Shown piece by piece: positions 3,524-34,742 of a DNA stretch of 36,931 nucleotides. The stretch comes from Nemertoderma westbladi. Its lineage: Eukaryota > Animalia > Xenacoelomorpha. Below the pieces are notes generated by a model. That model saw only the letters and a program-made list of their open reading frames with translations. It had not been told where the DNA came from and did not search any database. The DNA lies in contig JAUCBJ010001925.1 of the NCBI GenBank assembly GCA_032718475.1, positions 1 to 36,931 on the forward strand, in the 5' to 3' direction. The position numbers and the translations under genes were made by a program. Every line of letters begins with the position of its first letter. Positions within the stretch are counted from its first letter, which is position 1.

Positions 3524-3622
3524 ATTTATGTAAAATATGAATGGCAACAATTTGATTCTAAGTCTTTTGGGGGAATCAACATGTTATATGCGATACATTC
3601 TGCGAAAAAAGTAATAAACTAC

Positions 3623-4159
3623 CTCGCTGGATTTCTCGACCGACAAAACCACGTCGAGGATTCCGTTCCCATTGAGATCGAAGAACGAGGCGAGAATCGG
3701 AGTTCCATCCAACGCGGGTAGGGAACGAGGTCGGAACGTCCGCGTTCCTTCGCAGACCTCGACGGGACCGAGGCATTCAACGTTCTCCAACACAACGGCG
3801 GCCGTGGAGTCGCCGTCCTTCACGATGACGACGGCGTCGGGGAACCGATCGAAGTTGTAATCCGCGAAGTTGAGTTGCACGGGGTACCGCGGGGGTCGGG
3901 AGTGGAACTGTACGGAACGGCCGGACAGTTGGAGGTCGGACACCACGAGGTCCCACTGCTGCGACGCGAAGGAGTACGCGTAGACGCGGCTACTACCGGA
4001 GCCGCAGTCCGAGGCGACGCAGCCCGGTTGGACGATGTCGACACGGCCGTCCGCGTCGAGGTCCACGAACCCCGCCCGGCCGAGGTACTCCAACTCGGTC
4101 GGCGCGGTGACCGTGGTCTCCAGGTACAGACGGCCCGCCCCGCCGTCCATACGCCACAC
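3623..4159 (-). CDS. ITFG1: ITFG1 coding exon 2
   Basis: Acceptor tttgcag|GTG TGG joins in frame to give RQFE|VWR. Motifs GFVDLDADGRVDIVQPGC, FADYNFDRFPDA and ASFFDLNGNGILDV. Donor GAG|GTAGTT, 537 bp, phase 0-0. Confidence 0.9.
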
Positions 4160-4251
4160 CTGCAAACGGAATCGAGAGGTTTGGGTGTCATGATTCAGTA
4201 AAAGTTGCCCAAAAATATCATCAAAAAAAATACAAGATATATAAATATCAG

Positions 4252-4717
4252 TAGTGATGTTGCGAATGTCACATTTTTAACATCCGCACGGATGCGGGCG
4301 GATGTCTATTAAAACATATATATTTTTGCCTGGCCTCCCTTTTACATCAAGGTTATACCAGCATTTTAATATTATATTCTAATCTTATATTAATAAACTA
4401 ACAAGAGTCTAAGGTTATAGAACAGAATGGGATATAATATAACAAAACAATAAAACAACAAACATTTTTTATATTGTTCCCGTCGAGTGTTAGTGTATTT
4501 TTAGTATTAGTATAATATTAAGATAAAATAAAAAAAAATTCATAAGGGAAAAAGTAATTATTATTAAAAATTTAATTGAGTGGTTGCTGGGCCTTCAGAC
4601 AGGATGCTTGAATAGTGCATGTAACATCCGCATGTCACATCCGCATGACGTGGGTGCGGATGCGGATGCGAAAAATCATGCGGATATCCGCGGATGCGGA
4701 CATTCGCCACATCCCTA
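4252..4717. mobile_element. Non-autonomous hAT (Ac-like) MITE in ITFG1 intron 1
   Basis: 19-bp imperfect TIR TAG[T/G]GATGT[T/G]GCGAATGTC and perfect 8-bp TSD AATATCAG (4244-4251 / 4718-4725). Subterminal GCGGAT/ATCCGC repeats. Confidence 0.9.
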
Positions 4718-6020: not shown

Positions 6021-6148
6021 ATCGGAAAATCACCCCGTTCTTTCCTGACTAAAATAAAAATCTATCTAAATTCTGAAATTTCAGAATTATAAAAATATAA
6101 TTTAAGATCTACCAGTCTGCCAGTATACCGGTACCAAACCAAACCCAC

Positions 6149-6880
6149 CTCGAATTGCCTCCGATTGCCTTCCCCTACTGTTGCTATGACAACATCGGCC
6201 TCGAGATCTTCACCAACGACATCGACGAAGGCGTTGGTATTGGGAACGACAACATCCGCGGCGTCCTCAAGCCTCTCGAACAAATCATCGGTCTGCACCA
6301 CGGTTCGATTGGTGCCGACGGACCAGACGGCGCGCCGTCCGCTCGCCGAATCGACGCCCAGGATGTCAGGAATCATATCCCCGTTGGCGTCGAGAACCAA
6401 CGGCTGATCGGCCAGGCCGTCGGCCGCTACGTCGAGTCCGTCAACCAAGGTGGCCGGCACGCCGCCGCCCCAGTAGATGGTAAGATGCGCCAGTGAAGAG
6501 TCGCTCTTCTGCGCGACCACTAGGACGTCCATGAAACCGTCTCCGTCGAAGTCCCCCGGTGCGACGGACGTGATCTCGCCGACTCCGTCGTACTCGATAT
6601 TTACTTCCGCCTCGGTCGAACCGAAATGCGGCTCGGCGTCCTTCCAGAAATGGATCAACACGGTTCGCTCCCCTACGACTACGAATATATCGACCTTTTT
6701 GTCGCCGTTGTAATTCCCGTAAGCGGCGATTCGGCCCGGCATCTTCAGACCAAATTGGAAGCGAGAAATGTCAGTGAAAATTACGTCCGTGGTGTCGGAA
6801 TTGACAAAGTTTGCGAAAACGAACAGACAGTAGATAAATCCACAATACGGAAACACCGAGTTAGTTTTAGACATTGCCAT
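6149..6880 (-). CDS. ITFG1: ITFG1/TIP/LINKIN (integrin-alpha FG-GAP repeat protein 1), coding exon 1
   Basis: Signal-peptide-like N-terminus. FG-GAP/Ca-binding motifs (AAYGNYNGDKKVDIFV, VAPGDFDGDGFMDVLV, QPLVLDANGDMIPDILG, PNTNAFVD) match the ITFG1 family as recalled. GC-rich exon of 732 bp ending at donor GAG|GTGGGT, phase 0. Confidence 0.9.
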
Positions 6881-7104
6881 GTCTTTTCAGCTTTTAGGCT
6901 GCACGGAACGGACTGCAGGACTGGCTATCCAATTCAGCAATTGGAAACTGACTGGACTGCTGGAAGAAATGAAGATTACATCTCAAAGTCAACATGCAAC
7001 AATTACAAATTAGGCCTACAGAATTACTGAACTAGGATACTGCAGTACTGCTGTACTCTGGTACTGCAGTACTGAATTTACGACTGAAGGTCTACAGAAG
7101 AACC

Positions 7105-9302: not shown

Positions 9303-9896
9303 ACAACGAGTCAAAGGGAACAAAACGAGTCAAAGAGTACAATAGCAAAGGGTACAACGAGACAAAGGGTACAAACACGGCGGTCAAAGGGTACAAAACA
9401 TAGGACGTCAAAGGGTACAAACAAAACGAGTCAAAGTGTACAACACATCAAAGGGTACAACGAGACAAATGGTACAAACCAGGCGATCAAAAGGTACAAA
9501 ACATGACGTCAAAGGGTACAAACAAAGCGGTCAAAGGGTACAAAACATAGGTCGTCAAAGGGTACAAACAAAACGAGTCAAAGTGTACAACACATCAAAG
9601 GGTACAACGAGACAAATGGTACAAACCAGGCGATCAAAAGGTACAAAACAGGACGTCAAAGGGTACAAACAAAACGAGACAAAGTGTACAACATCAAAGG
9701 GAAAAAAACGAGTCAAAGGGTACAACATGAAAGGGTACAACGAGACAAAGGGTACAAACCAGGCGGTCAAAGGGTACAAAACATAGGACGTCAAAGGGTA
9801 CAAACAAAACGAGTCAAAGTGTACAACATCAAAGGGTATAACGAGACATAGGGTACAAACCAGGCGGTCAAAGGGTACAAAACAGAACGTCAAAGT
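9303..9896. repeat. Complex minisatellite built on CAAAGGGTACAA with a 147-bp higher-order duplication
   Basis: The core recurs every ~16-24 bp, and the block starting at 9421 recurs at 9568. Confidence 0.9.
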
Positions 9897-15535: not shown

Positions 15536-16680
15536 GTGGGGCGAGCCACGAAGTTAGCGGAGCCTTAGCGAATTGACACTGTTAGGGGGTGGGTCAATTT
15601 ATGCAAATAGTTGTCGTCGTCGTCGTCGTCGTTGTCGTCGTCGTCGTCGTTACGATTTTGACATGCTAATAACTTTGTTGGATTTAAAGCTGCCAAGTTG
15701 AAAATTTGTAGGTATCAATATGAGCAAAAGTTGAGATTTTTGAGAGACTTTCAGACACCATCAGTGCAATGGTCTCCCGCTAGAGGGCCACATGTCTAAA
15801 CATTAAATGGCCACCCATTTCTTTGCTTTTAATCCGTTTAAGCTGAAACTTGGGAAGTATGTACTAGACCATTAGCTGTAAATTTCAAAGGAGGCTAATC
15901 TGTCTGCAGTTCTCCAGTCTGCCGCTAGAGGGCGAAATGTCCCTAATGTGAAATTATTCTTCCATTTAGTTGTTTATGATCTGATTACGCTGAAACTTGT
16001 CATATATGTACTAGATGACATCCTGAGTCTTTGTGTGGATTGTAATCGGTCCGAAGTTTTCCAGTCTGCCGGTAGAGGGCCACATGTCTAAACATTAAAT
16101 GTCCTTCCCATTTTTTGCTTTTAATCCGTTTAAGATGAAACGTGGCAGATATGTACTAAACCATTAGCTATGACTTTCAAATGAGGCGAATCCGTTTACA
16201 GTTCTCCAGTCTGCCGTTAGAAGGCAAAATGTCCCGAAAGTGAAATTAATCTCCCATTTAGTTATTTATGATCTGATCAAGCTGAAACTTGTCATATATG
16301 TACTAGAAGACATCCTAAGTCTTTGTGTGGACAGTAATCGGTCCGGAGTTTTCGAGTCTGCCGCTAGAGGGCGAAATGTAGGAAAGTGATAACCTTCGCG
16401 AATTCCTTGATCTTAATCTATTTAAGCTGAATTTTGGAATATACAGTACCGGTATGTACTAGACCACATGCCTCGTCTTTGTGAGGAAGGTGATCGATCC
16501 GTAGTTCTTTAATATGCCGCTAGAGGGCTAAATGTATGAAAGTGAAAACCTTCCAACATTTCGTTATTTATGATCCGTCAATCGGAAACTTGGTAGATAT
16601 GTAATAGACCATAGGCTGTGGCTTTGTAGGGAAACTAATCCTTCCTTCTTCAGTTACCCAGTCTCCCGCTAGAGGGTTAA
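15536..16680 (+). mobile_element. Helentron/HINE-like non-autonomous element with (GTC)n microsatellite and ~146-bp internal tandem array
   Basis: The 5' motif TGTGG[G/A]GCGAGCCA[C/A]GAA is shared with 22129 and 25948. (GTC)n lies at ~15611-15650. Seven units with CCGCTAGAGGGC-like cores at 15777, 15922, 16069, 16214, 16361, 16517 and 16666. Confidence 0.6.
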
Positions 16681-25947: not shown

Positions 25948-26622
25948 TGGGGCGAGCCAAGAAAGTGTGCGAGCTTCGCATACGGCTACCAATAACTCAT
26001 TCGGTGTGTCTGTTGATGGTTGATCTGTTGTGTCCAATAATTTAAAAGTTAATAACTCAGCCAAATGTTAATTAAATCTAACCAAACCTGGTACACATGT
26101 TGTTTGGAAAAACTTTAAAAATTTTCAATAAGATTTTTAAAAATTATCCAAGTTGAATTTGCGTGTGGCCTTTGACAAGCTAAGATAAAAGCAGTTAATT
26201 AAGTTGATTAAGGTAAAAAATAGCATTTTTCTGCCGTCCCTTTAATGGAAATTAATTATTTTCTAGTATTTGATTTAAATAATTATACTTAAAAATTATA
26301 CAGCTGCAATCCGCATACCCCATTCCATTATACTGTAGTTTTAATTAGTTCAAGTGATTTACTTTAAGAAAAAATATGTTTTTAATTGATATAAACGTAA
26401 TTAAGTTATCAAAATGCAACCGTCTCTCCACACCCTATACTTCCAGCTCCACACTCCTGCAGGGCTAGCGTGCTTGCTATTGCCTAGCTGGGAAAACTAG
26501 TCAAATCTACTTCACCACTGCTAGAGCAAAGGGTAATTACATCTATATGAGCCTCAACCCCTAAAATATGTAATTCATTTGTATTTCATAACTGAGCCTC
26601 GTGCTGCGCGAAGGCTCCACGA
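25948..26622 (+). mobile_element. Helentron/HINE-like non-autonomous element
   Basis: 5' GTGG[G/A]GC and 3' GCTCCAC subterminal inverted motif, with 3' structure GCCTCGTGCTGCGCGAAGGC (a similar 3' end lies at ~25330-25356). It appears to span the outer boundary of the left inverted arm. Confidence 0.55.
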
Positions 26623-26907
26623 ACGTGTTATTTGTGTCGAATCTCCCTCATTAATTTAATTTTTTTGGAATAAGTTTCAAAATCCCCCTTTTTCTTAAAA
26701 ACATATATTCTTGAGGAAAACGGAAGGAAGATAAACTCGTATGTGTATTTTTGATGGTTAACCACATTTATCGACAATGGCTTTAGTGATAATGGTTTAA
26801 TTTTAGTTCCGAAAACACAATGAATGGCAATGTTTAAATTTGTAAAATCTAATCGTTTAAAAGTAACGGCTGCGCCCAAGAATAAATATTACCCTCAAAA
26901 CTCGGGC

Positions 26908-27767
26908 GTACTACTACTACTACTAGGATCGGCATGCTACATTGCAGCTGCATTTTTAAGAATGCTGTGCCGGCTTATCGACAAAATTGCACCGCCACAA
27001 CTCCCTATCACCCATGACATTTGCTAGATCATCCGCATCTTCCAGGCCAGTGTCCTTTAAGATGCGTCTCAAGAAAGTCGTGGGCTGTCCACCATGCTTA
27101 TACACTCCATGAGGCTGCCAAAGTACAAGATTATGCACTGGCTGGTCCTCACGGCGAAAGCAATGTCCTGCAAAGCGGAGGCGATTTTGTTCTAGTGTCA
27201 AGCTTGGGGGAACCAATGAGACACCTCCAATGTCTTATAGTGTCTGGTTGGAGATGTGTGCATTGTACTTGACACAATGAACCCGGCGTAGCATTCTTGT
27301 GAATGTGCCATCCAGAGATTTGGTGTCCTCAGCAGTTAGAGCCCAGCACGGACTCCCATAGAGGAGTACTGGAACTACTGCTGCTCTAAATAATCGGACC
27401 TTAAGTCTTCCTCTACTTCCAAATCCTGGAAAGCCTATTTAAGGCTGACCATGCCTTTCCCTTACGTATTCGAAGGTCCTCGCCTGACTTCCGGATCCAT
27501 GATCCCAGGTAACAGAAGTCATCCACATGCTCAAGCATACCATCTTTTGAGCTTGTGCTCATCCGATCAGAGACTTGCTGAGGACTTTCAAAGTTAACTG
27601 TGAAAATTTTGGTTTTTCTGGAGTTAATAAAAAGACCAACACTAGAAGCATCATGTTCTAATGAGCTGAGGAACCGTTGGGCTCCCTCTAGTGATTCTGA
27701 GAGTACTCCTAAGTCAACAGCAAAGTCTAGATCAGTTAGGTACTTGCCAGGAATAAATACCACATCA
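26908..27767 (-). mobile_element. 5'-truncated RTE family A LINE with 35-bp TSD
   Basis: LDFAVDL, VDDFCYLGSWI and RLRFAGHCFR motifs, (TAG)n tail, and TSD at 26873-26907 = 27768-27802. Confidence 0.9.
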
Positions 27768-27898
27768 CGCCCAAGAATAAATATTACCCTCAAAACTCGG
27801 GCTTTATTTTAGTTGTACTAACGAGTATTGACTCTAATGTTGTTGAAAACAGATACTTGTTCTAAAATATAATTATAATTATACAAAAAGACACTTAC

Positions 27899-27971
27899 AC
27901 ATAATCACCGGCACGCTTATCAATGCTAAAACAATAAAAGCTATCAAAATGATCCATTTTGCTCCAATCAT
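27899..27971 (-). CDS. Orphan secreted/type II helical protein (candidate four-helix cytokine), coding exon 1: MIGAKWIILIAFIVLALISVPVIM
   Basis: Acceptor attatacag lies 6 nt upstream of the ATG (context aaaATGA). Hydrophobic signal or anchor peptide, consensus donor T|GTAAGT, phase 1. Confidence 0.65.
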
Positions 27972-28179
27972 TTTGTTCTGTATAATTTTAGTATTATCGT
28001 TAATTTTAATTAAATTAGAAAAATCCATTTGATAGTGTGCTCTCACAATCGTTTTGTATTTTATAGCGAACCCATTGTTTTCGGAACTAAAACTATTTTG
28101 GTTCACTTTCCCACCTAACCGTTTAAAAATCTACGAGATTAAGTATCCTTAATCAGGTAGTGAACTATCCGATACCTAA

Positions 28180-28470
28180 TAGCGTACCTCAATGTGTTAG
28201 ATTAACGATACCAAAGTACCACCCAGTTGGCCAATCAGAAATGCTTCCTGAAGTAAGCCCAATCTGCTACCGCAAACCAGAATCAATCCAATGTTAGTAA
28301 TAGTGTGAGCAATCTCAAAGCTGATTGGTTAGATATGGTGATTCCCGGTTTGAAATCCATAGCATGGAACTAATGTAAATACGTCATCAGCTTTTATTCT
28401 CATTTCCTCTTTCCTGTACTTACAAGCCAATGCAAAACAATATTATCTGTTATGCCAATTCTAGGAGTAA
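28180..28470 (-). promoter_or_regulatory. Probable promoter and 5'UTR exon of the orphan gene (mirrored at ~32660-32950)
   Basis: About six CCAAT/ATTGG boxes within ~230 bp and a TGACGT (CRE-like) site, followed by a possible 5'UTR donor GAG|GTACGC upstream of the ATG exon. Confidence 0.4.
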
Positions 28471-28729
28471 AGGGATAATATTAATGGGAAGTGGAGTTTA
28501 CTGAGGTGGTGTAACTGTAACATTTATACAAAATATGTGTGAAGAAACCGGGGTATTATTTATGATGTATTACAACAGTTCTTCTATTGATTCCGCTAAG
28601 CTAAATTTATATTTAAAATTCTTACGTTAATGTGGTTATAGTACGTGATGTGGTAAATAGTAGGGTAACTCGTAAGTTAGATTGTAGTGAGGCTATAATT
28701 AATACATTAAGGTATGTATGGTATCTTAG

Positions 28730-29910: not shown

Positions 29911-30139
29911 AAGGTTCACCATTGAGAGTTATAGGTTACATCGAATGGTATACCATAGGCCTATAGGAATAGGGCACTGTGAGCATTTGTTATACTTACT
30001 TACTAATGATGGTTTTTTTTGTCTGATGGCATTACTGATAGAATGTAGGCCTACACTATTTTTAAATAAATAAATTGGAGTTGAGCTGTTAGTGCAACTG
30101 TAATTAAAGATGTAATATTATGGTTTTGTTCAGAAATGG

Positions 30140-30246
30140 AAAAAATGAGAAAGCGCGTCACCGGGGGTTGAACCAGCGCTATACGTACGTTTCAGCCTAT
30201 CAGGCCTCATCAGTAGCGCTAACTAGTTCAGCCACTTGTCCCTGAC
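30140..30246 (-). ncRNA. Putative ~105-nt Pol III transcription unit enclosing the hammerhead
   Basis: Box A-like TGGCTGAACTAG (30223-30234), box B GGTTCAACCCC (30164-30174), terminal pairing GTCAGGG/CCCGGTGAC and a T6 run (30140-30145). Confidence 0.55.
30175..30220 (-). ncRNA. Minimal type I hammerhead ribozyme
   Basis: Minus strand reads AGCGCUA-CUGAUGA-GGCCU(GAU)AGGCU-GAAA-C(GUAC)G-UA^UAGCGCU. It has an intact core, a 7-bp stem I, a 5-bp stem II, a minimal palindromic stem III and a GUA cleavage triplet (cut between 30182 and 30181). Confidence 0.88.
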
Positions 30247-30782
30247 ATTCACTATCCCACCTAAACCACTTCTATTGAACAGGCAGTCTTAAGTTGCATA
30301 TCCATATCCGATCCAATGTTAACATTATCACAATAATTCCAACCATGAACAAACCAATATCTCAGTTAGCAGTCATTATTCTAATAAGATATCACAACAT
30401 ATGTTGCTTTACCCGACCGACCCTAAGTGTACACACTGTTGCCTGCCTTTATGATAGTATCCAACCACCAACCCCCCCCCCCCCCCCCCCATTGATTGTA
30501 ATCAATGTCTTTAATTTTGTATTCTTATAATACTGGAGTATATAGTAGTTTAATACACTTTGTGTAAATTAAAGGTGAGTTGTGAATCTCCATTATGAAA
30601 AAGCCATTAAAATATTTTATAGTTTTCTATTCATATCGTATCTTTGGGACCAAACTGTATCGAAAACGTGGCGAACTCCCATGTACCCCCATGTGGAGAA
30701 TACCAGTTTTCACTAAAACCACAGGTTTCAGAAGGGACCATTCTAACCAAAACAATATACGAATATGTATCTATACAGATTA

Positions 30783-32460: not shown

Positions 32461-33156
32461 TGTTTTAACTTTGTAGGCTATCTTAAGATCTTCTCTCTTA
32501 CAAGTAACCTCAGGCTGTCAGGGTTTTGCCATGGCACATACTGTTTTCGTTTGGGCTTCTGGGGGATATCCATACCCCGGTTTCTTCACACATATTTTGT
32601 ATAAATGTTACAGTTACACCACCTCAGTAAACTCCACTTCCCATTAATATTATCCCTTTACTCCTAGAATTGGCATAACAGATAATATTGTTTTGCATTG
32701 GCTTGTAAGTACAGGAAAGAGGAAATGAGAATAAAAGCTGATGACGTATTTACATTAGTTCCATGCTATGGATTTCAAACCGGGAATCACCATATCTAAC
32801 CAATCAGCTTTGAGATTGCTCACACTATTACTAACATTGGATTGATTCTGGTTTGCGGTAGCAGATTGGGCTTACTTCAGGAAGCATTTCTGATTGGCCA
32901 ACTGGGTGGTACTTTGGTATCGTTAATCTAACACATTGAGGTACGCTATTAGGTATCGGATAGTTCACTACCTGATTAAGGATACTTAATCTCGTAGATT
33001 TTTAAACGGTTAGGTGGGAAAGTGAACCAAAATAGTTTTAGTTCCGAAAACAATGGGTTCGCTATAAAATACAAAACGATTGTGAGAGCACACTATCAAA
33101 TGGATTTTTCTAATTTAATTAAAATTAACGATAATACTAAAATTATACAGAACAAA

Positions 33157-33229
33157 ATGATTGGAGCAAAATGGATCATTTTGATAGCTTTTATTGTTTT
33201 AGCATTGATAAGCGTGCCGGTGATTATGT
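33157..33229 (+). pseudogene. Duplicated copy of orphan gene coding exon 1 in the right arm of the inverted repeat
   Basis: Exact mirror of 27899-27971. Exons 2-4 are outside the duplicated arm. Confidence 0.6.
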
Positions 33230-33360
33230 GTAAGTGTCTTTTTGTATAATTATAATTATATTTTAGAACAAGTATCTGTTTTCAACAACATTAGAGTCAA
33301 TACTCGTTAGTACAACTAAAATAAAGCCCGAGTTTTGAGGGTAATATTTATTCTTGGGCG

Positions 33361-34220
33361 TGATGTGGTATTTATTCCTGGCAAGTACCTAACTGATCTA
33401 GACTTTGCTGTTGACTTAGGAGTACTCTCAGAATCACTAGAGGGAGCCCAACGGTTCCTCAGCTCATTAGAACATGATGCTTCTAGTGTTGGTCTTTTTA
33501 TTAACTCCAGAAAAACCAAAATTTTCACAGTTAACTTTGAAAGTCCTCAGCAAGTCTCTGATCGGATGAGCACAAGCTCAAAAGATGGTATGCTTGAGCA
33601 TGTGGATGACTTCTGTTACCTGGGATCATGGATCCGGAAGTCAGGCGAGGACCTTCGAATACGTAAGGGAAAGGCATGGTCAGCCTTAAATAGGCTTTCC
33701 AGGATTTGGAAGTAGAGGAAGACTTAAGGTCCGATTATTTAGAGCAGCAGTAGTTCCAGTACTCCTCTATGGGAGTCCGTGCTGGGCTCTAACTGCTGAG
33801 GACACCAAATCTCTGGATGGCACATTCACAAGAATGCTACGCCGGGTTCATTGTGTCAAGTACAATGCACACATCTCCAACCAGACACTATAAGACATTG
33901 GAGGTGTCTCATTGGTTCCCCCAAGCTTGACACTAGAACAAAATCGCCTCCGCTTTGCAGGACATTGCTTTCGCCGTGAGGACCAGCCAGTGCATAATCT
34001 TGTACTTTGGCAGCCTCATGGAGTGTATAAGCATGGTGGACAGCCCACGACTTTCTTGAGACGCATCTTAAAGGACACTGGCCTGGAAGATGCGGATGAT
34101 CTAGCAAATGTCATGGGTGATAGGGAGTTGTGGCGGTGCAATTTTGTCGATAAGCCGGCACAGCATTCTTAAAAATGCAGCTGCAATGTAGCATGCCGAT
34201 CCTAGTAGTAGTAGTAGTAC
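33361..34220 (+). mobile_element. Mirror copy of the RTE family A insertion in the right arm
   Basis: Reverse complement of 26908-27767 including the TSD, so the insertion predates the duplication. Confidence 0.9.
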
Positions 34221-34742
34221 GCCCGAGTTTTGAGGGTAATATTTATTCTTGGGCGCAGCCGTTACTTTTAAACGATTAGATTTTACAAATTTAAACATTG
34301 CCATTCATTGTGTTTTCGGAACTAAAATTAAACCATTATCACTAAAGCCATTGTCGATAAATGTGGTTAACCATCAAAAATACACATACGAGTTTATCTT
34401 CCTTCCGTTTTCCTCAAGAATATATGTTTTTAAGAAAAAGGGGGATTTTGAAACTTATTCCAAAAAAATTAAATTAATGAGGGAGATTCGACACAAATAA
34501 CACGTTCGTGGAGCCTTCGCGCAGCACGAGGCTCAGTTATGAAATACAAATGAATTACATATTTTAGGGGTTGAGGCTCATATAGATGTAATTACCCTTT
34601 GCTCTAGCAGTGGTGAAGTAGATTTGACTAGTTTTCCCAGCTAGGCAATAGCAAGCACGCTAGCCCTGCAGGAGTGTGGAGCTGGAAGTATAGGGTGTGG
34701 AGAGACGGTTGCATTTTGATAACTTAATTACGTTATATATTT

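What the first reader, a model, noticed from the sequence alone, without database searches (positions are those of the whole stretch)
30140..30246. Hammerhead ribozyme nested between Pol III box A and box B in a vault-RNA-like panhandle
Seen in sequence (minus strand): GUCAGGG-acaag-UGGCUGAACUAG-uu-[AGCGCUA CUGAUGA GGCCUgauAGGCU GAAA CguacG UA^UAGCGCU]-GGUUCAACC-CCCGGUGAC...UUUUUU. The catalytic core is intact. Box A (UGAACU) can pair with box B (GGUUCA), extending stem I past an AGUU bulge that could contact loop II. Established: minimal type I hammerheads with palindromic stem III occur in Penelope-like elements and metazoan retrozymes and cleave as dimers. Schistosome Sm-alpha repeats combine hammerheads with Pol III boxes, and a panhandle containing both boxes is typical of vault RNAs. 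Inference: this could be a compact self-cleaving Pol III RNA or SINE-like retrozyme in which the promoter boxes double as ribozyme scaffold. No Penelope ORF or second tandem copy is visible here.
Basis: partly seen in the sequence, partly recalled or inferred. Interest (0 to 1): 0.8.

Follow-up and report, generated by a model that had tools for sequence, protein, structure and literature searches.

The report
Hammerhead ribozyme inside a jumping promoter
This is one solo copy of an abundant, protein-free repeat of about 260 bases in an animal genome, with a complete hammerhead motif set between two tRNA-type promoter boxes; it is likely a small jumping element whose RNA is predicted to cut itself in pairs through its own promoter sequence, so that only rejoined or uncut RNA would give new copies with a whole promoter.

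Summary
Observation confirmed. A complete type I hammerhead lies at 30175-30220 (minus strand, predicted cut 30182/30181) between an A box, a B box and T6. None of 1500 shuffles gave as good a hammerhead, and 7 of 2000 gave the boxes.

The unit is larger than reported. DNA contigs from three studies show a high-copy, mostly dispersed repeat from about 30065 to just beyond 30303. Family-majority bases perfect the A box and the G10.1-C11.1 pair. The arms outside the 105-nt vault-like unit pair into a rod, stronger on the ribozyme strand (z -3.6 against -1.9); the 105-nt unit alone folds no better than chance.

It is not a vault RNA. Best reading (0.6): a solo copy of a non-LTR retrozyme, likely copied by a Penelope-type enzyme (no target duplication; two AT-rich 3' ends 44 nt apart). 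Unresolved: T6 would stop Pol III before unit length. Cleavage, expression and circles are untested.

Ten paper searches showed no hammerhead nested between the boxes; Sm-alpha is described with the two in series. This scan noted the same layout twice before, in tandem arrays elsewhere in this genome. New variant of a known kind.

The parts
30065..30303 (-). Whole repeat copy; the family continues about 13-17 nt further 5', which this copy lacks
   Evidence: Contig depth rises at 30062-30067 and falls at 30303 in 4 of 4 runs; loose ends
30247..30303 (-). 5' arm of the rod, upstream of the predicted Pol III start
   Evidence: Predicted to pair with 30093-30155, pair probabilities mostly above 0.9
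30223..30234 (-). A box (1 mismatch here, perfect in the family majority)
   Evidence: scan with a recalled consensus; 30224 differs in 93-99% of family depth
30214..30220 (-). Hammerhead stem I, 5' strand
30207..30213 (-). Catalytic core CUGAUGA
   Evidence: none of 22 family changes of 3% or more in run X1 falls in the 13 core bases
30194..30206 (-). Stem-loop II; G10.1-U11.1 here, G-C in 60-85% of family depth
30183..30193 (-). GAAA and self-complementary stem III (8-mer 30190-30183)
   Evidence: Self-duplex -9.8 kcal/mol; two copies fold into a double hammerhead
30181..30182 (-). Predicted cleavage site, after GUA
   Evidence: Hammerhead consensus; not tested
30175..30181 (-). Hammerhead stem I, 3' strand
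30164..30174 (-). B box (perfect match), predicted to pair with the A box
30140..30145 (-). T6, candidate Pol III terminator; three of its U are also paired in the rod
   Evidence: No substitution of 1% or more in X1 or X3; helix E
30085..30139 (-). 3' arm of the rod, downstream of T6
30067..30110 (-). Optional 3' extension of about 44 nt between two frequent ends (Penelope-tail-like, inferred)
   Evidence: Loose ends into unlike flanks at 30066/67 and 30110/11 in X1 and X3
30061..30074 (-). AT-rich (TTTA)n end: tail or target site
   Evidence: no target duplication above 5 nt

Best explanation
This is a solo copy of a high-copy, non-coding repeat of about 260 nt with a hammerhead motif between tRNA-type A and B boxes, likely a non-autonomous retroelement of the non-LTR retrozyme kind that is predicted to cut itself in pairs and is likely pasted into AT-rich DNA by a Penelope-type reverse transcriptase. 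Shown: the motifs, the high copy number, the extent of the unit, mostly unlike flanks and the self-complementary arms. Inferred steps: (1) RNA longer than the 105-nt Pol III unit is made, from tandem source loci or by read-through. (2) Two hammerheads pair through stem III and cut. (3) Unit-length RNA is ligated into a rod-like circle, which rejoins the A box to the B box. (4) Reverse transcription starts at the AT-rich end of the rod opposite the ribozyme and goes once round, or copies uncut RNA, giving solo copies with the order A box - hammerhead - B box intact. (5) Solo copies would make only a 105-111 nt Pol III RNA ending at T6, a dead end for copying.
For: High copy: 3118, 2036, 1710 and 132 contigs laid in runs X1-X4 (3 samples, 3 studies); summed depth about 2x10^5 in X1 against 25 on the flank (the tool warns this is no copy number). 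Dispersed: loose ends into unlike flanks, agreement 0.44-0.51; one head-to-tail joint giving a 264-nt unit, within the 170-400 nt of animal retrozymes (PMC7229834). Hammerhead has the canonical metazoan form (helix I 6, helix II 4, short palindromic helix III; PMC4209133). Dimer -41.2 against 2 x -15.8 kcal/mol with both cores open. Common variants in the ribozyme keep it: G-U to G-C at 10.1-11.1, a wobble in the stem III duplex, a loop II change; one X4 contig of depth 1108 rebuilds stem I by a 4-nt insertion plus a matching change (read by hand). Rod 30127-30281: z -3.58 (0 of 200) on the ribozyme strand, -1.92 (6 of 200) on the other. No target duplication; two 3' ends about 44 nt apart in AT-rich DNA, like the optional 30-40 bp Penelope tail (PMC11167929, PMC8557442). 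Solo retrozyme copies are described (bioRxiv 10.64898/2026.07.22.740005).
Against: T6 lies 36 nt after the cut and is kept in the family, so Pol III should stop long before unit length; the source of long RNA is unexplained. Tandem arrays, which define retrozymes, are rare here: no head-to-tail joint among the 15 of 53 joints listed, and one in the side table. The rod limits were chosen after seeing the fold; the whole copy gives only z -1.44 (17 of 200). Of 11 informative changes in paired positions 7 keep and 4 break pairs (p about 0.07). Absence of variants in the core and in T6 is expected by chance in 30% and 51% of cases. The 44-nt spacing is outside the published 30-40 bp, and the 30110 end lies in an indel-rich stretch. 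No Penelope partner was identified. Eight of nine frog retrozyme dimers did not cleave in vitro (bioRxiv 10.64898/2026.07.22.740005).
Confidence: 0.6

Rival explanations
1. A DNA-level foldback element (MITE or Helentron-associated type) whose long imperfect inverted arms are for a transposase, carrying a short Pol III hammerhead unit as cargo.
For: The copied unit reaches beyond both ends of the predicted Pol III RNA; the arms are complementary; a kept T6 fits a self-contained short transcript; no target duplication fits Helentron-type insertion (recalled).
Against: Pairing is better on one strand, with 6 G-U against 1 A-C among 57 helix positions (p about 0.06, and biased by how the helices were picked). 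The 3' end is not single. The inverted match is subterminal and 7 nt long, and no 3' hairpin was seen by eye.
Confidence: 0.13
2. A tRNA-derived SINE carried by a LINE (RTE or CR1/L2 type), with the hammerhead in its head and a (TTTA)n tail.
For: tRNA-type boxes at normal spacing (48 nt); AT-rich repeat at the 3' end; LINE reverse transcriptase remains in the window. An unchecked scan note reports a LINE-linked hammerhead repeat in this genome.
Against: At least 69 nt of family sequence precede the A box; T6 lies in the middle of the unit; no target duplication; no match of the 3' part to LINE remains in the window. A ribozyme behind a SINE head would cut the head off (argued for HDV-type ribozymes in PMC5786205).
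Confidence: 0.1
3. The terminal repeat (pLTR) left by 5'-truncated autonomous Penelope elements; the boxes are incidental.
For: Palindromic stem III; Penelope-like ends; 6 of 15 listed joints change strand, as in inverted Penelope insertions, though the self-complementary arms could cause these.
Against: Penelope minimal hammerheads have helix II of 7-8 and helix I of 4-5 pairs with an unpaired base at the 5' side of helix II (PMC4209133); here 4-5 and 7 with none. Family likeness ends about 13-17 nt beyond 30303. Perfect boxes are unlikely by chance.
Confidence: 0.1
4. A vault RNA or other host Pol III gene that self-cleaves.
For: A box near the 5' end, B box near the 3' end, T run, 105-111 nt, A/B pairing; vault genes use such boxes (PMC7904556).
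Against: No Rfam vault match even at E 10; high copy number with unlike flanks; short unit folds like shuffles; this copy carries private changes, one in the A box.
Confidence: 0.03
5. A solo LTR of a Helenus-type TRIM (tRNA-like sequence inside an LTR).
For: tRNA-type boxes inside a repeat with upstream sequence, as in Helenus (PMC10886601); the subterminal inverted match contains TG...CA.
Against: Family sequence continues outside TG...CA on both sides; no 4-5 bp duplication at those positions and no primer-binding site seen by eye; one copy in the window.
Confidence: 0.03

Closest known systems
Metazoan non-LTR retrozymes (PMC7229834, passages and sections 14, 17; bioRxiv 10.64898/2026.07.22.740005, parts 1-3 of 5)
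   Same: Non-coding 170-400 nt unit, canonical type I hammerhead with short palindromic helix III, self-paired RNA, many solo copies, proposed Penelope dependence.
   Different: Internal A and B boxes flanking the ribozyme and a T6 ('Pol III' 0 occurrences in PMC7229834); tandem arrays seem rare for this family; circles not shown.
Sm-alpha / Sj-alpha SINE-like hammerhead repeats of Schistosoma (PMC6765202, PMC2770079, PMC8490949, passages; originals not seen)
   Same: High-copy repeat of similar size (335 bp) joining a Pol III promoter and a type I hammerhead.
   Different: Described as promoter followed by ribozyme, with single copies losing the ability to propagate. Here the cut falls between A box and B box, the boxes pair to extend stem I, and solo copies keep the order intact.
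Penelope-like element pLTR hammerheads (PMC4209133, PMC8557442 passages; PMC11167929 parts 1-2 of 4)
   Same: Palindromic helix III and dimer requirement; AT-rich targets; optional 3' tail; target duplications often not discernible.
   Different: Canonical rather than minimal geometry; no ORF; tRNA-type boxes; tail-like spacing 44 rather than 30-40 nt.
Vault RNA (PMC7904556 passages; Rfam)
   Same: Type 2 boxes, T run, about 100 nt, ends paired.
   Different: No Rfam match, high-copy mobile repeat, ribozyme in the middle.
Helenus / Cassandra TRIMs (PMC10886601, part 1 of 6 and passages)
   Same: Pol III promoter buried inside a larger copied unit.
   Different: No LTR pair, primer-binding site or short target duplication; carries a ribozyme.

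Membership tests
Type I hammerhead ribozyme | CUGANGA, GAAA and UH core with three helices, open at helix I | tested here: met
   0 of 1500 shuffles as good
Type I hammerhead ribozyme | Match to an Rfam hammerhead model | tested here: not met
   the very short stem III may fall outside the models (inference)
Type I hammerhead ribozyme | Self-cleavage | not testable with these tools
   Dimer fold predicted only
Non-LTR retrozyme | Non-coding unit of 170-400 nt with canonical type I hammerhead | tested here: met
   About 255-265 nt
Non-LTR retrozyme | Tandem copies, each with a hammerhead | tested here: inconclusive
   Solo in the window; one head-to-tail joint in X2; short contigs cannot show arrays
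Non-LTR retrozyme | Highly self-paired unit RNA | tested here: met
   Core rod z -3.58; whole copy only z -1.44
Non-LTR retrozyme | Linear and circular unit-length RNA in tissues | not testable with these tools
   No RNA run was available
tRNA-derived SINE | A and B boxes | tested here: met
   (consensus recalled)
tRNA-derived SINE | Head at the 5' end and no terminator before the tail | tested here: not met
   At least 69 nt before the A box; T6 mid-unit
tRNA-derived SINE | Target-site duplication | tested here: not met
   Longest shared word 5 nt, background 5-7; one locus only, and its 5' end is missing
tRNA-derived SINE | 3' tail shared with a LINE | tested here: inconclusive
   No match within the window; no genome held
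Vault RNA | Match to the Rfam vault model | tested here: not met
Vault RNA | Few-copy host gene | tested here: not met
Vault RNA | Association with vault particles | not testable with these tools
   Needs biochemistry
Penelope pLTR | Adjacent RT plus GIY-YIG ORF | tested here: not met
   15 of the 40 ORFs of 100 aa or more scanned: RVT_1 and AP-endonuclease only; window only
Penelope pLTR | Minimal hammerhead geometry | tested here: not met
   against PMC4209133; some Penelope variants have other geometries
Penelope pLTR | Optional 30-40 bp tail, AT-rich target | tested here: inconclusive
   Two ends 43-45 nt apart
MITE / Helentron-associated element | Terminal inverted repeats with a fixed end, or subterminal repeats plus 3' hairpin | tested here: inconclusive
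   7-nt subterminal inverted match, two 3' ends, no hairpin seen; defining features recalled
Helenus TRIM | Two LTRs, primer-binding site, polypurine tract, 4-bp duplication | tested here: not met
   against PMC10886601

The most novel reading that the evidence does not exclude
A retroelement that cuts its own promoter in two. The A and B boxes work as DNA promoter and, in RNA, as the outer helix of the ribozyme, so only circularised RNA hands on a promoter. The many solo copies would pour out a 105-111 nt Pol III RNA that supplies the second hammerhead in trans through the palindromic stem III, switching on cleavage of source transcripts and of any host pre-mRNA that carries a sense copy.
Probability: 0.15. 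Interest if true: 0.8.

Novelty: new variant of a known kind. Interest (0 to 1): 0.52.

Why it matters
How animal retrozymes are transcribed, and which enzyme copies them, is open in the papers read. A family with tRNA-type boxes wrapped around the ribozyme makes both questions testable: Pol III dependence by box mutation, and the copying enzyme by the ends of many insertions. The nested layout would tie promoter inheritance to RNA rejoining, unlike Sm-alpha as described. The kept terminator predicts a short ribozyme RNA separate from the copying template, which could act in trans. The ribozyme class and the promoter-plus-ribozyme pairing are already known, which caps the score.

Tried and rejected
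No whole genome is held, so copy number, arrays, empty sites and Penelope partners could not be counted. No RNA holder listed; this says nothing about expression. Rfam and ARAGORN gave nothing relevant. Pattern scans: viral 0 hits; GTDB 0 hits twice; metagenome 1 hit, L001, a chance match in bacterial coding-like DNA with no likeness to the element; a looser viral scan gave 9 loci (2 distinct sequences) with stem I of 0-1 pairs and no intact boxes, all dropped. The 5' flank 30320-30460 had no cover in any run and the 3' flank one X1 contig, so no empty site was seen and it is not shown that the runs are of the window's own species. A plain DNA alignment of the two arms was too gapped to use. 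Conservation of core and T6 was tested and is not significant. Three of the 30 breakpoints of the 15 listed joints lie within 3 nt of the predicted cut (30180, 30183, 30184; about 0.7 expected by hand count), but each is at single-locus depth and picked after the fact, so they are not used. Host placement by ITFG1 gave 32-39% identity to mollusc, sea urchin and priapulid proteins: animal, phylum unresolved. Sequence look-ups among earlier scan notes found no look-alike. Ferbeyre 1998 and Lunse 2017 are not held.

Full report
Setting. The window is animal DNA, 33-51% GC, with LINE remains (RVT_1 and AP-endonuclease hits in 5 of 15 ORFs scanned, of 40 listed) and an ITFG1-like gene 32-39% identical to mollusc, sea urchin and priapulid proteins. 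No genome is held.

The observation. My descriptor found one type I hammerhead in the window. Of 1500 dinucleotide shuffles, 5 had any hammerhead, 1 had stems as long, and 0 also had the short stem III. An A box with at most one mismatch, a perfect B box and a T run occur once, at this site, and in 7 of 2000 locally shuffled windows (box consensus recalled). Rfam and ARAGORN find nothing relevant. The 116 nt around the proposed vault-like unit fold no better than shuffles (z +0.27). The monomer mispairs its core; forcing the active fold costs 2.5 kcal/mol. Two copies fold into a double hammerhead with both cores open, -41.2 against 2 x -15.8 kcal/mol, as described for metazoan type I motifs with a palindromic helix III (PMC4209133, passages).

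It is part of a larger high-copy repeat. Four DNA runs of one coded organism (3 samples, 3 studies) hold 44-56% of the sampled words. Laid at 80% likeness, 3118, 2036, 1710 and 132 contigs fall on about 30062-30303 and almost none outside. Summed depth in X1 is about 2x10^5, against 25 for the one flank contig and 10-27 for listed single-locus contigs. The tool warns that this is not a copy number, and overlapping contigs inflate it. With 699, 610, 598 and 61 contigs only partly on the stretch, I read at least hundreds and likely thousands of loci. At 30303 the loose ends of all four runs agree for about 13-17 letters and then diverge, so the family starts slightly further upstream than this copy. 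At the 3' side, loose ends run into unlike AT-rich DNA at 30066/67 (21 and 10 contigs, agreement 0.44 and 0.51) and at 30110/11 (18 and 19 contigs, 0.44 and 0.45) in X1 and X3. Those at 30093, 30120 and 30126 carry family-like letters and reflect indels (12 of 232 rows shown). No head-to-tail joint is among the 15 of 53 joints listed; one appears in the side table of X2 and gives a 264-nt unit. No target duplication longer than 5 nt flanks this copy.

What the variants say. All 22 changes of 3% or more in X1 were classed: 10 unpaired, 7 keep or improve a pair, 4 break one, 1 neutral. Seven of 11 against an expected share of 0.37 gives p about 0.07, and one helix was drawn knowing a variant. 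Two of the changes, 30250 and 30155, face each other and could be compensatory, but contigs could not be phased. None falls in the 13 core bases, which has a 30% chance anyway. The direction is more telling. G at 30224 (93-99% of depth) completes the A box. C at 11.1 (60-85%) gives the conserved G10.1-C11.1 pair. The stem III change leaves a G-U pair in the dimer. One X4 contig of depth 1108 has a 4-nt insertion beside the core and a change at 30180 that together, read by hand, rebuild stem I with a bulge; it also shortens T6 to T5. T6 shows no substitution of 1% or more in X1 or X3, also unremarkable by chance (51%). This copy has three near-private changes (30092, 30224, 30265), so it is young but not pristine.

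The rod. Sequence upstream of the proposed start pairs with sequence downstream of T6. The stretch 30127-30281 folds at -55.0 kcal/mol, z -3.58, 0 of 200 shuffles, on the ribozyme strand, and at -38.1, z -1.92, 6 of 200, on the other. These limits were chosen from the fold; the whole copy gives z -1.44, 17 of 200. The helices hold 49 Watson-Crick, 6 G-U, 1 A-C and 1 U-U positions. The family's missing 5' bases include a 7-nt complement of 30091-30085 (by eye). So the structure lies largely outside the short Pol III unit, and the unit's two ends meet at the pole opposite the ribozyme, as expected of a rod-like circle opened at one point (inference).

Mechanism. The best reading is a solo copy of a non-LTR retrozyme. 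Such elements are 170-400 nt, self-paired, expressed as circles and proposed to depend on Penelope elements (PMC7229834); solo copies can be any share of a family (bioRxiv preprint). A Penelope enzyme nicks AT-rich DNA and starts inside the RNA at two sites, leaving an optional 30-40 bp tail (PMC11167929). The two 3' ends here, 71 and 114 nt past the cut, resemble that but are 44 nt apart. Because the cut lies between the boxes, a linear cleaved monomer would carry B before A; only a rejoined circle or uncut RNA yields the order seen. The weak point is T6: Pol III would give a 105-111 nt RNA (65 plus 40-42 nt after cleavage) that cannot template the whole unit. Long RNA must come from read-through, from Pol II, or from source loci not seen here. 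No RNA evidence could be obtained.

Comparison and novelty. Sm-alpha is reviewed as a promoter followed by a hammerhead (PMC6765202, passages). I could not see the original papers or any supplement, and either could describe a nested layout. Ten full-text searches listed no paper whose title or abstract start, or whose passages I read, describes a hammerhead between A and B boxes. Also read as passages: PMC8557442, PMC2770079, PMC8490949, PMC7904556, PMC5786205, PMC6155905, and PMC10886601 (plus part 1 of 6). Vault RNA, classic SINE, Penelope pLTR and Helenus each fail a tested defining feature; retrozyme membership is open on tandem arrays and circles. Unchecked notes of this scan report the same nested layout in two tandem arrays elsewhere in this genome, and promoter-then-ribozyme units in four more. 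They were not found by sequence look-up, so they are probably other families, and they are not counted as support.

Verdict. A real feature and a new variant of a known kind. Interest 0.52; confidence in the retrozyme reading 0.6.

Noticed in passing
window 26394-28556 and 32572-34734: Two 2163-nt inverted copies, 100% complementary, enclosing 4 kb that holds this element and a broken LINE reverse transcriptase: a very recent duplication or an assembly artefact.
   Followed up: no
window 3584-4276 and 6062-6886, minus: ITFG1-like gene with long, GC-rich open frames; the second was searched and is only 32-39% identical to other invertebrate ITFG1.
   Followed up: partly
window 30357-30373, minus: By eye, 12 of 17 bases match the family's 5' bases missing from this copy, 53 nt further upstream; possibly an insertion into the 5' end, possibly chance.
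   Followed up: no
window 30128 and 30198 (loose ends in runs X1 and X3): One contig shares only the 3' part of the element and continues in other sequence; three contigs appear to carry a B-box-like word upstream of the 3' half of the hammerhead. Possibly related families with other layouts.
   Followed up: no
window 30214-30221 and 30175-30181, minus: Both strands of stem I are themselves nearly palindromic and nearly identical, which would ease strand exchange between molecules.
   Followed up: partly
window 11960, 19525, 19593, 20807, 25898, 29674, 30734: Seven copies of a 26-nt word of another short repeat family, two of them flanking this element (D8).
   Followed up: no
L002-L008 and L010 (match about 1040-1540): One identical hammerhead-core-like stretch in eight viral contigs, with no stem I; other hammerhead topologies were not tested.
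   Followed up: no
window 9319-9892 and 15772-16553: Degenerate tandem repeats with units of about 147 and 292 nt; no hammerhead core in them.
   Followed up: partly
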